Shown here piece after piece: positions 38,592-38,649 of a DNA stretch of 64,000 nucleotides (positions are counted from its first letter, which is position 1; every line of letters begins with the position of its first letter). Location: the NCBI RefSeq assembly GCF_009931435.1, contig NZ_CP043414.1. One strand, given 5' to 3'. The DNA comes from Escherichia coli (lineage in GTDB: Bacteria; Pseudomonadota; Gammaproteobacteria; Enterobacterales; Enterobacteriaceae). Under the pieces are notes generated by a model that ran no database searches, was not told where the DNA came from, and saw only the letters and a list, made by a program, of their open reading frames with translations. The position numbers and the translations under genes were made by a program.

Positions 38592-38649
38592 GCCCGAGGT
38601 AATCTGAAAAAGGTGCAAAAGATTGCACCTTTTTCAGATTACCTCGGGC
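38592..38649. terminator. Perfect 27-bp inverted repeat (4-nt loop) between convergent yjcF and yjcE; probable bidirectional terminator
   Basis: GCCCGAGGTAATCTGAAAAAGGTGCAA-aaga-TTGCACCTTTTTCAGATTACCTCGGGC; the two arms are exact reverse complements. Confidence 0.6.

What the first reader, a model, noticed from the sequence alone, without database searches (positions are those of the whole stretch)
38592..38649. Exact 27-bp inverted repeat between convergent yjcF and yjcE
A 27-bp perfect stem with a 4-nt loop is far longer than ordinary intrinsic terminators (usually 5-12 bp) and is an exact reverse complement with no mismatch. It may be a very strong bidirectional terminator, an RNase III or processing target, or a protein recognition palindrome at the junction with the AT-rich yjcF gene.
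Basis: seen in the sequence. Interest (0 to 1): 0.4.

Follow-up and report, generated by a model that had tools for sequence, protein, structure and literature searches.

The report
Terminator hairpin perfected by template switching
The exact 27-bp inverted repeat is real, but it is an ordinary two-way transcription terminator between yjcF (espX5) and yjcE whose stem is perfect only in a rare E. coli lineage, most likely because DNA replication copied one arm from the other.

Summary
In detail: arms 38592-38618 and 38623-38649, 27/27 complementary, loop AAGA, single copy, far beyond chance.

Anatomy:
- The core is a 7-bp stem (GGTGCAA/TTGCACC) flanked by an A5 run and a T5 run. This reads as a Rho-independent terminator on both strands.
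- The core also sits between actP and yjcE in Escherichia lineages that lack the AT-rich yjcF island.
- The outer 15 bp are not conserved.

Population picture (4,118 of 5,426 complete genomes carry the hairpin):
- About 4,060, including K-12, pair at 23/27 or fewer.
- The window's perfect form occurs in about 18, all with one rare, very divergent yjcF allele.
- Eight genomes carry a different perfect palindrome, in which the right arm was rewritten to match the common left arm. Against their nearest relative, 5 of 6 differences in 2.2 kb lie in 10 nt of that arm, and each creates a Watson-Crick pair.
- The TT·TT mismatch was fixed as a dinucleotide on either arm, on near-identical backgrounds.

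This is the signature of quasipalindrome correction by replication template switching, a known process. For the window's own allele the direction of change is inferred by analogy. No 3'-end data were found for the site. The finding is ordinary in kind and modest in interest.

The parts
38592..38618 (.). Left arm of the palindrome (GCCCGAGGTAATCTGAAAAAGGTGCAA). The window differs from the common E. coli allele only at positions 38599, 38603, 38607 and 38608.
38619..38622 (.). Loop AAGA, invariant in every yjcF-carrying allele read, so there has been no loop inversion.
38623..38649 (.). Right arm (TTGCACCTTTTTCAGATTACCTCGGGC). Its outer part is homologous to the yjcE 3' flank of E. albertii, which lacks yjcF.
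38612..38629 (.). Core terminator hairpin GGTGCAA-AAGA-TTGCACC (about -9.5 to -10.4 kcal/mol on its own). It is shared, with a compensatory G-C to A-T change, with Escherichia lineages in which actP and yjcE are directly convergent.
38630..38634 (+). T5 run, the U-tract for transcripts coming from yjcF.
38607..38611 (-). A5 run on the + strand, which is the U-tract (UUUUU) for transcripts coming from yjcE. In the common allele (K-12) it reads UUUAA.
37210..38502 (+). yjcF (espX5), an AT-rich pentapeptide-repeat gene and a variable island. The window carries the rare, most divergent allele ('B').
38670..40319 (-). yjcE, a Na+/H+ exchanger-family gene convergent with yjcF.
38549..38562 (+). A 14-bp segment of the yjcF 3' UTR. 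It is present in haplotypes B and C and deleted in the common haplotypes, and was used as a haplotype marker.

Best explanation
The element is the shared Rho-independent terminator hairpin of the convergent genes yjcF (espX5) and yjcE. Its functional part is the 7-bp core stem with an A5 run on one side and a T5 run on the other, so that each strand reads 'hairpin then UUUUU'. This core predates the yjcF island: it separates actP and yjcE in Escherichia lineages without yjcF. The outer 15 bp of pairing are most likely not needed for termination. They are the product of a mutational process, replication template switching within a quasipalindrome (Ripley-type correction). In this process the nascent strand folds back on the perfect core and copies one arm from the other, outward from the loop, then returns to its template. 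In the window's lineage this most likely rewrote four left-arm positions (38599 C>G, 38603 C>T, 38607-8 TT>AA) to match the right arm, turning a 23/27 quasipalindrome into a 27/27 palindrome. What is shown: the anatomy, the homology of the core, the allele series, and clustered arm-directed changes in other lineages. What is inferred: that the core actually terminates transcription, that the mechanism is template switching rather than another arm-to-arm process, and that the window's allele is derived rather than ancestral.
For: Terminator core:
- It has a stem, a loop and a U5 run on both strands.
- It lies just after both stop codons.
- The same AAAAGGTGC...GCACCTTTTT hairpin sits between actP and yjcE in E. 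albertii, Escherichia sp. MOD1-EC7003 and yjcF-less E. coli. The stems differ by compensatory changes: GCAA/TTGC versus GCGA/TCGC, and CTGT/ACAG versus CGGT/ACCG.

Outer stem not conserved:
- 4,118 of 5,426 genomes carry the hairpin. Most are 94.4% identical to the window over 72 nt, with all four differences in the left arm, giving 23/27 pairs.
- K-12 has this common form.
- 79 of 82 readable metagenome loci carry it or a 22/27 form; only one of the three others is a yjcF-yjcE locus, and it is the A* palindrome.
- Single mutations at the tips of the allele tree all break pairs.

Arm-to-arm copying:
- Allele A* is a different perfect palindrome, found in 8 complete genomes and 1 metagenome contig. 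Its right arm matches the common left arm.
- Against its nearest relative, 5 of 6 differences in 2.2 kb fall within 10 nt of the right arm, and each creates a Watson-Crick pair.
- K-12 and L006 are the same haplotype apart from TT versus AA in the left arm.
- L008 (left arm TT>AA) and L184 (right arm TT>AA) are identical over 1.3 kb except for those 4 nt.
- L185 shows right-arm TT>AA on another background.
- Partial tracts always include the loop-proximal mismatch, as fold-back priming predicts.
- A* and A** destroy the U5 run on the yjcF side. This points to a mutational process rather than selection for termination.

The mechanism is established in E. coli (PMC7202029), and excess and conservation of perfect inverted repeats have been ascribed to it (PMC5941160).
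Against: - No RNA 3'-end evidence was found. Adams et al. 2021 (PMC7815308) curate no Term-seq 3' end at K-12 4281651-4281708, and they list Rho termination regions at 4281854 (+) and 4281402 (-), just beyond the hairpin on each strand. The common allele may therefore be leaky, or the genes too weakly expressed to tell.
- The consensus terminator scan did not flag the site, probably because the stem runs through the T run.
- For the window's own allele B, no close relative with an imperfect arm was found. That includes six B-type loci from other assemblies, five of them readable at the hairpin.
- B is the most divergent yjcF allele, 80-93 differences in 1,293 nt, so B could instead preserve an ancestral perfect state.
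- Outgroup left arms agree with the common allele at only some of the four positions.
- Short recombination patches could mimic some of the dinucleotide changes, since the locus is mosaic.
- A shuffle test of covariation on 11 alleles is not significant.
Confidence: 0.7

Rival explanations
1. The perfect palindrome is the ancestral state. An inverted duplication made it when the yjcF island was inserted or rearranged. The window's lineage merely preserved it, while all other lineages decayed by point mutation.
For: B is the deepest yjcF branch, so rooting is ambiguous. All yjcF-carrying alleles share a right arm reading ...TTACCTC..., where E. albertii has ...TTAAGTC.... The CC would pair with a left-arm GG, as in B. 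Tip mutations show that decay is going on. Even the common allele pairs at 13 of 17 positions outside the core (P about 1e-5), so some earlier arm-to-arm copying is needed in any scenario.
Against: It requires an AA>TT tandem double transversion plus two more changes, all in one arm. The C,C,TT left arm is shared by haplotypes with and without the 14-bp segment and agrees with outgroup left arms at position 8 and partly at 12 and 16. Corrections toward perfection are demonstrably recurrent at this hairpin. That makes correction the simpler account for B too.
Confidence: 0.17
2. The long stem is selected at the RNA level and is kept or restored by compensatory evolution. Possible roles are an RNase III site that destroys read-through or convergent transcripts, or a 3' stability element.
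For: A 27-bp RNA duplex is long enough for RNase III (general knowledge). Four pairs show changes on both sides between alleles. Five of six transitions seen in the arms keep a G·U pair on the yjcE-sense RNA (P about 0.1).
Against: About 99% of carriers have 2-6 mismatches, and new mutations break pairs. Changes arrive as dinucleotide or 4-5-nt blocks on otherwise near-identical backgrounds, with no single-step intermediates seen. Corrections go either way, regardless of what happens to the U runs. RNAs that terminate in the U run would not contain the outer 3' arm at all.
Confidence: 0.08
3. The palindrome is a DNA-level site: a dimeric protein operator, a recombinase or integration site for the yjcF island, or a cruciform-forming element.
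For: It lies at the right-hand boundary of a variable island, and perfect dyad symmetry is typical of dimer binding sites.
Against: Either half-site can be rewritten (B versus A*), and several positions vary among strains. It is single-copy, with no second site at the other island boundary. The alternative island (lrgAB-lysR) uses a different hairpin next to yjcE. There is no recombinase gene in the island.
Confidence: 0.03
4. The perfect forms are sequencing or assembly artefacts at a hairpin.
For: Palindromes do disturb assemblies. One draft contig has an N and a deletion inside this hairpin.
Against: B is present in 17 independent complete genomes, in several draft and Logan assemblies, and in the window itself. 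A* is in 8 complete genomes and one Illumina metagenome contig with normal flanks and no fold-back chimera.
Confidence: 0.01

Closest known systems
Bidirectional Rho-independent terminators between convergent E. coli genes (a hairpin flanked by an A-tract and a U-tract; the class surveyed by Ju et al. 2019 as described in bioRxiv 10.1101/2022.10.23.513370)
   Same: It lies between convergent stop codons. One hairpin serves both strands. A5 and T5 runs flank a stem containing G+C. The hairpin is conserved across related lineages with compensatory changes.
   Different: The pairing continues 15 bp beyond the A and T runs, to 27 bp, so the U run is buried in the stem. No mapped 3' end is available. 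In K-12, Rho-dependent regions lie just outside it on both strands.
Quasipalindrome-associated template-switch mutation (Ripley 1982; the thyA hotspot and the lacZ QP5/QP6 reporters of the Lovett laboratory, PMC7202029; the genome-wide inference in PMC5941160)
   Same: It is an imperfect inverted repeat with a short loop. The changes are clustered multi-nucleotide changes in which every new base is the complement of the other arm. Events occur on either arm, which corresponds to either replication strand.
   Different: Here it is seen as standing polymorphism in natural genomes, not as selected revertants. The tracts reach 10 nt with 4-5 changes. The same site shows at least five independent events, including two different perfect end-states. 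No rates or genetic dependencies were measured.
REP/BIME, ERIC/IRU and other extragenic palindromic repeat families of enterobacteria
   Same: It is an extragenic palindrome in a 3' intergenic region between convergent genes.
   Different: It is single-copy in every genome examined, matches no Rfam family at the gathering threshold, and has no family consensus.
Inverted-repeat expansion by template switching described for yeast promoters (PMC13100816) and coding genes (PMC8604942)
   Same: The arms are homogenised, and the repeat apparently grew outward beyond an original short stem.
   Different: It is bacterial, it sits at a terminator, and the loop is not inverted in any allele.

Membership tests
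Rho-independent (intrinsic) terminator, bidirectional | A stem-loop containing G+C followed directly by a U run on the transcribed strand, on both strands | tested here: met
   GGUGCAA-loop-UUGCACC then UUUUUCAG on both strands in the window. The simple scan did not list it, probably because the stem extends through the T run.
Rho-independent (intrinsic) terminator, bidirectional | Position just downstream of the stop codons of convergent genes | tested here: met
   The hairpin lies 89 nt after the yjcF stop and 20 nt after the yjcE stop.
Rho-independent (intrinsic) terminator, bidirectional | Hairpin conserved in related lineages, with compensatory changes | tested here: met
   The core is present in E. 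albertii, Escherichia sp. MOD1-EC7003 and yjcF-less E. coli. The stems read GCGA/TCGC versus GCAA/TTGC, and CTGT/ACAG versus CGGT/ACCG.
Rho-independent (intrinsic) terminator, bidirectional | RNA 3' ends in the U run, or Rho-independent termination activity | tested here: inconclusive
   There is no curated Term-seq 3' end at the K-12 site, and Rho termination regions lie 146 nt and about 250 nt beyond it (PMC7815308). Other data sets are not held as text. No data exist for the window's allele.
Quasipalindrome correction by replication template switching | An imperfect inverted repeat with a short loop that can fold as a hairpin | tested here: met
   The common allele has 23/27 pairs and a perfect 10-bp core next to a 4-nt loop.
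Quasipalindrome correction by replication template switching | A clustered multi-nucleotide change in one arm, with every new base the complement of the other arm, on an otherwise unchanged background | tested here: met
   A* versus PS10-3: 5 of 6 differences in 2.2 kb. K-12 versus L006, and L008 versus L184. For the window's allele B the pattern is met, but no near-identical background is available.
Quasipalindrome correction by replication template switching | Dependence on replication, strand, 3' exonucleases or chain terminators | not testable with these tools
   This needs genetics. The strand assignment (left-arm events on the leading nascent strand, right-arm events on the lagging one) is only inferred, from the K-12 position 356 kb clockwise of oriC and from GC skew.
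REP/BIME, ERIC or other dispersed palindromic repeat families; MITEs | Many copies per genome sharing a consensus | tested here: not met
   There is one locus per genome in 4,118 genomes and no other copy in the window at up to 3 mismatches. Rfam gives only sub-threshold generic hairpin (miRNA) hits.
RNase III substrate | A long, nearly perfect RNA duplex (about two helical turns), and cleavage by RNase III | not testable with these tools
   A 27-bp duplex would form only in read-through RNA. Cleavage was not tested.
Palindromic protein operator or recombination site | Both half-sites conserved in sequence | tested here: not met
   Ten arm positions vary among 11 alleles, and either arm can be rewritten.

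The most novel reading that the evidence does not exclude
Terminator hairpins may be recurrent natural hotspots of template switching, and this process, not selection, may lengthen and symmetrise them. Copying a U run onto the opposite arm creates the A run that makes a one-way terminator two-way, as in alleles A' and B here. Copying in the other direction destroys the U run, as in A** and A*. If so, this locus would be a ready-made natural reporter, with events on both arms, for the rate, tract length and strand bias of quasipalindrome correction in wild E. coli. It would also be an example of how bidirectional terminators arise.
Probability: 0.25. Interest if true: 0.55.

Novelty: new member of a known kind. 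Interest (0 to 1): 0.33.

Why it matters
The element itself is routine: a terminator hairpin at the edge of a horizontally acquired gene. Its value is as a clean natural illustration. One quasipalindrome has been converted to two different perfect palindromes, and to two partial ones, in different E. coli lineages, on backgrounds that are otherwise nearly identical. This shows that the exactness of a long inverted repeat can be a mutational by-product rather than a mark of function, which is a useful caution when scanning genomes for 'too perfect' structures. It also shows that such events alter the U runs of a bidirectional terminator in both directions, so they could change read-through between convergent genes from strain to strain.

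Tried and rejected
- Rfam at a permissive threshold gave only sub-threshold miRNA-like hairpin hits and weak STnc40/STnc320 matches. No family fits.
- A dispersed repeat family or MITE was rejected, because the element is single-copy.
- The consensus terminator scan did not list the site. I rely on direct reading and folding of the core instead.
- I first inferred that the rare perfect form is derived simply because it is rare. I dropped that argument when B proved to be the deepest yjcF allele.
- Outgroup polarisation from empty-site lineages is ambiguous at 3 of the 4 positions.
- I tested whether the metagenome A* contig was a fold-back assembly chimera. Its flanks are normal, and the allele recurs in 8 complete genomes.
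- Recombination could explain allele A'. It is possible only with a patch of 84 nt or less and cannot be excluded for single cases. It does not explain opposite-arm changes on one background.
- A shuffle test of covariation on 11 alleles is not significant.
- I looked for a B-type haplotype with an imperfect arm in complete genomes, metagenomes and other assemblies, and found none.
- I looked for mapped 3' ends. Only Adams et al. 2021 was searchable, with nothing at the site. Other papers or their supplements are not held.
- The 45-aa ORF at 38586-38723 that spans the hairpin was treated as spurious and not pursued.

Full report
**1. The observation.** The window holds a perfect inverted repeat: arms 38592-38618 and 38623-38649, 27 nt each, with a 4-nt loop AAGA.
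- It is the longest perfect short-loop inverted repeat in the 64 kb.
- As RNA it folds at about -54 kcal/mol on either strand, with z about -9.5.
- About 3e-11 such repeats are expected by chance in a window of this size.
- No second copy exists in the window at up to 3 mismatches.
- E. coli genomes hold it at one locus only.
actP runs 35382-37031 on +. yjcF runs 37210-38502 on +; it is a pentapeptide-repeat protein that some RefSeq records call T3SS effector EspX5, at 30-37% G+C. yjcE runs 38670-40319 on - and is a Na+/H+ exchanger. ghxP follows.

**2. Anatomy.**
- Read from either strand, the inner part is a textbook intrinsic terminator. The stem GGUGCAA/UUGCACC has 7 bp, four of them G·C, with a 4-nt loop and about -10 kcal/mol alone. 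UUUUUCAG follows directly, and an A5 run precedes it that can pair with the U run.
- The palindrome then continues for 15 more base pairs (GCCCGAGGTAATCTG / CAGATTACCTCGGGC).
- An RNA that ends in the U run does not contain the outer 3' arm. The full 27-bp duplex can therefore form only in read-through RNA or in DNA.
- The simple terminator scan did not list the site, probably because the stem runs through the T run.

**3. Where the core comes from.** The interval between actP and yjcE is variable.
- 4,118 of 5,426 complete genomes carry yjcF there.
- UTI89-like strains and E. whittamii carry lrgB-lrgA-lysR, with a different hairpin next to yjcE.
- A few E. coli, E. albertii and two other Escherichia species have nothing, and actP and yjcE converge about 82 bp apart.
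- In these empty sites the spacer holds the same hairpin, AAAAGGTGC...GCACCTTTTT. Its stem extensions differ by compensatory changes: CGGT/ACCG, CTGT/ACAG, and GCGA/TCGC against GCAA/TTGC.
- The E. albertii sequence beyond the T run (CAGATTAAGTCGGGC...ACGTCGCTTTCGG) is clearly homologous to the window's right arm and yjcE flank.
- So the core is an old actP/yjcE bidirectional terminator, and the yjcF island sits between actP and that hairpin.
- Even in the common allele the outer region pairs at 13 of 17 positions (P about 1e-5). The left outer arm must at some time have been copied from the right flank.

**4. The perfection is strain-specific.** The right arm is the same in the B, A and A' alleles. 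The left arm varies.

| Allele | What differs | Pairs | Where found |
|---|---|---|---|
| A (common) | left arm GCCCGAGcTAAcCTGttAAAGGTGCAA | 23/27 | about 4,060 genomes (this form or lower-pairing variants), including K-12 MG1655 |
| B (window) | left arm perfect | 27/27 | 17 genomes exact, plus two one-off variants |
| A' | left TT>AA only | 25/27 | about 23 genomes |
| 'C' haplotypes | A-type left arm plus their own right-arm changes | 21-23/27 | four complete genomes read, L093-L096 |

- All B genomes carry one yjcF haplotype. It differs from every other allele by 80-93 of 1,293 nt and 45-62 of 430 residues.
- Single mutations at the tips of the allele tree (L004, L009, L093-L096, L191) all break pairs.
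- Of the 82 metagenome loci readable at the hairpin (83 matched the core pattern), 73 are allele A and 6 are A plus one more mismatch.
- There is therefore no sign that the outer stem, or its exactness, is maintained by selection.

**5. Arm-to-arm copying is demonstrable at this hairpin.** One metagenome contig and 8 complete genomes carry a second, different perfect palindrome, A*. It keeps the common left arm, and its right arm is rewritten to TTGCACCTTTAACAGGTTAGCTCGGGC. The contig's flanks are normal, so it is not a fold-back chimera.
- A* has the same EspX5 protein as its nearest relative, PS10-3. Over 2.2 kb the two differ at six positions. Five lie within 10 nt of the right arm (window equivalents 38633, 38634, 38637, 38638, 38642), and each turns a mismatch into a Watson-Crick pair.
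- Four genomes carry a partial version, A**, with only the right-arm TT>AA change.
- K-12 (TT·TT) and L006/L007 (left AA) share one haplotype over 1.6 kb and differ at five sites, two of which are that dinucleotide.
- L008 (left TT>AA) and L184 (right TT>AA) are identical from 38232 to 39510 except for those four bases. The same mismatch was resolved in opposite directions on one background.
- L185 shows the right-arm change on yet another background.
- I saw no allele with only one base of the dinucleotide changed, and none in which a distal mismatch was fixed without the loop-proximal one.
- This is what Ripley-type template switching predicts. The nascent 3' end folds back on the perfect core, copies the first-made arm outward for a variable distance, and returns to its template.
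- The mechanism is well established in E. coli (PMC7202029). It has been proposed to explain the excess and conservation of perfect inverted repeats in proteobacterial intergenic regions (PMC5941160).
- A* and A** replace the U5 run on the yjcF side by UUUAA. The process is therefore indifferent to terminator quality.

**6. The window's own allele.** B is the mirror image of A*: the common right arm, with the left arm matching it at all four mismatch positions within a 10-nt tract. By analogy it is a left-arm conversion.
- I could not show this on a near-identical background. Every B-type haplotype found, in complete genomes and in six loci from other assemblies (five readable at the hairpin), has the perfect palindrome or a single derived mismatch.
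- B is also the deepest allele, so it might instead retain an ancestral perfect state.
- Outgroup left arms agree with the common allele at position 8 and only partly at positions 12, 16 and 17.
- The right-arm CC at 38642-3, where E. albertii has AG, would itself fit a template with a left-arm GG. That favours the ancestral-perfect rival at that one position.
- I put about 0.7 on 'terminator core plus derived perfection by template switching' and about 0.17 on 'ancestral perfect, others decayed'. Either way an arm-to-arm copying step made the long palindrome.

**7. Function.** Termination is inferred from sequence, position and conservation of the core. It is not shown.
- The only searchable 3'-end data set, Adams et al. 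2021 (PMC7815308), lists no curated Term-seq 3' end at K-12 4281651-4281708.
- It does list Rho termination regions at 4281854 (+ strand, antisense to yjcF, Rho score 6.7) and at 4281402 (- strand, antisense to yjcE, score 5.4).
- Read counts are low and the analysis windows are 800 nt. This shows only that some transcription exists beyond the hairpin and is stopped by Rho. It may be read-through, or it may start inside the AT-rich gene.
- It argues against calling the common allele a 'very strong' terminator. It says nothing about allele B, which unlike K-12 has a U5 run on the yjcE side as well.
- RNase III cleavage of read-through RNA is structurally possible and untested.
- A protein site is unlikely, because either half can be rewritten.

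**8. Strand inference (inference only).** The window's + strand is the K-12 - strand, and its GC skew is -0.027. The K-12 site lies about 356 kb clockwise of oriC. Left-arm corrections (A', B) would then arise on the leading nascent strand, and right-arm corrections (A**, A*) on the lagging one. At least three independent events of each kind are seen, so there is no obvious bias.

**9. Verdict.** The interpretation that its length and exactness signal special function is not supported. The element is a new example of two known things: a bidirectional intrinsic terminator, and quasipalindrome correction. It has an unusually clear natural allele series.

Noticed in passing
window 37032-38669 (the actP-yjcE interval); L010, L011, L012, L013-L016: The interval between actP and yjcE is a variable spot with at least three states. 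They are the yjcF/espX5 island (4,118 of 5,426 genomes), an lrgB-lrgA-lysR island (UTI89 and E. whittamii) with its own hairpin GGTTGGCGGGC-TC-GCCCGCCAACC next to yjcE, and an empty site with actP and yjcE about 82 bp apart.
   Followed up: partly
window 37210-38502; L002, L006, L093-L096: yjcF/espX5 is hyper-polymorphic, with several deep mosaic haplotypes. Alleles differ by 21-93 of 1,293 nt, and the B allele differs from the others by 45-62 of 430 residues, while the flanking genes differ far less. Several strains carry it as a pseudogene: an internal stop in E2865, a frameshift in MB06233, and an IS1 insertion in Z226-5.
   Followed up: partly
L003 (E. coli 14EC007) versus L016 (E. albertii NBRC 107761): One E. 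coli genome has an actP-yjcE junction identical to that of E. albertii over the stretch read. It is unique among the 5,426 genomes, which suggests an interspecies import.
   Followed up: no
window 37043-37062: A second hairpin, CCCCGGTC-GTCT-GACCGGGG, lies just after the actP stop. It is shared by the yjcF-island and lrgAB-island alleles, while empty sites have TGGTC-ACCT-GACCA there. It may be the left boundary of the variable spot or an actP terminator.
   Followed up: no
window 49919-49967: Another long near-perfect inverted repeat lies there: 24-nt arms, 22/24 complementary, 1 nt between them (TGTCTTTCATTTGCTGCAAAACCC / GGGTTTTGCAGCAAATGAAGAACA). It starts 5 nt after the stop of the ORF 48886-49914. 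It could be a second quasipalindrome of the same kind.
   Followed up: no
window 40424-40455 (- strand): A canonical terminator-like hairpin with a T run lies between ghxP and yjcE (14 pairs, then TTTTCTCC). It was reported by the consensus scan.
   Followed up: no
window 38592-38649, compared across alleles: Of six transitions seen in the arms, five keep a G·U pair on the yjcE-sense RNA and one on the yjcF-sense RNA. This is not significant (P about 0.1), but it would be worth testing on a full allele census.
   Followed up: partly
K-12 NC_000913.3 4281402 (-) and 4281854 (+); window equivalents inside yjcE and yjcF: Adams et al. 2021 list Rho-dependent termination regions antisense to both genes, just beyond the hairpin. 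This fits Rho-dependent silencing of antisense or read-through transcription around the AT-rich island.
   Followed up: partly
L192 3400-3440: A draft assembly has an N and a short deletion inside the right arm. This is a reminder that this palindrome disturbs short-read assembly.
   Followed up: no
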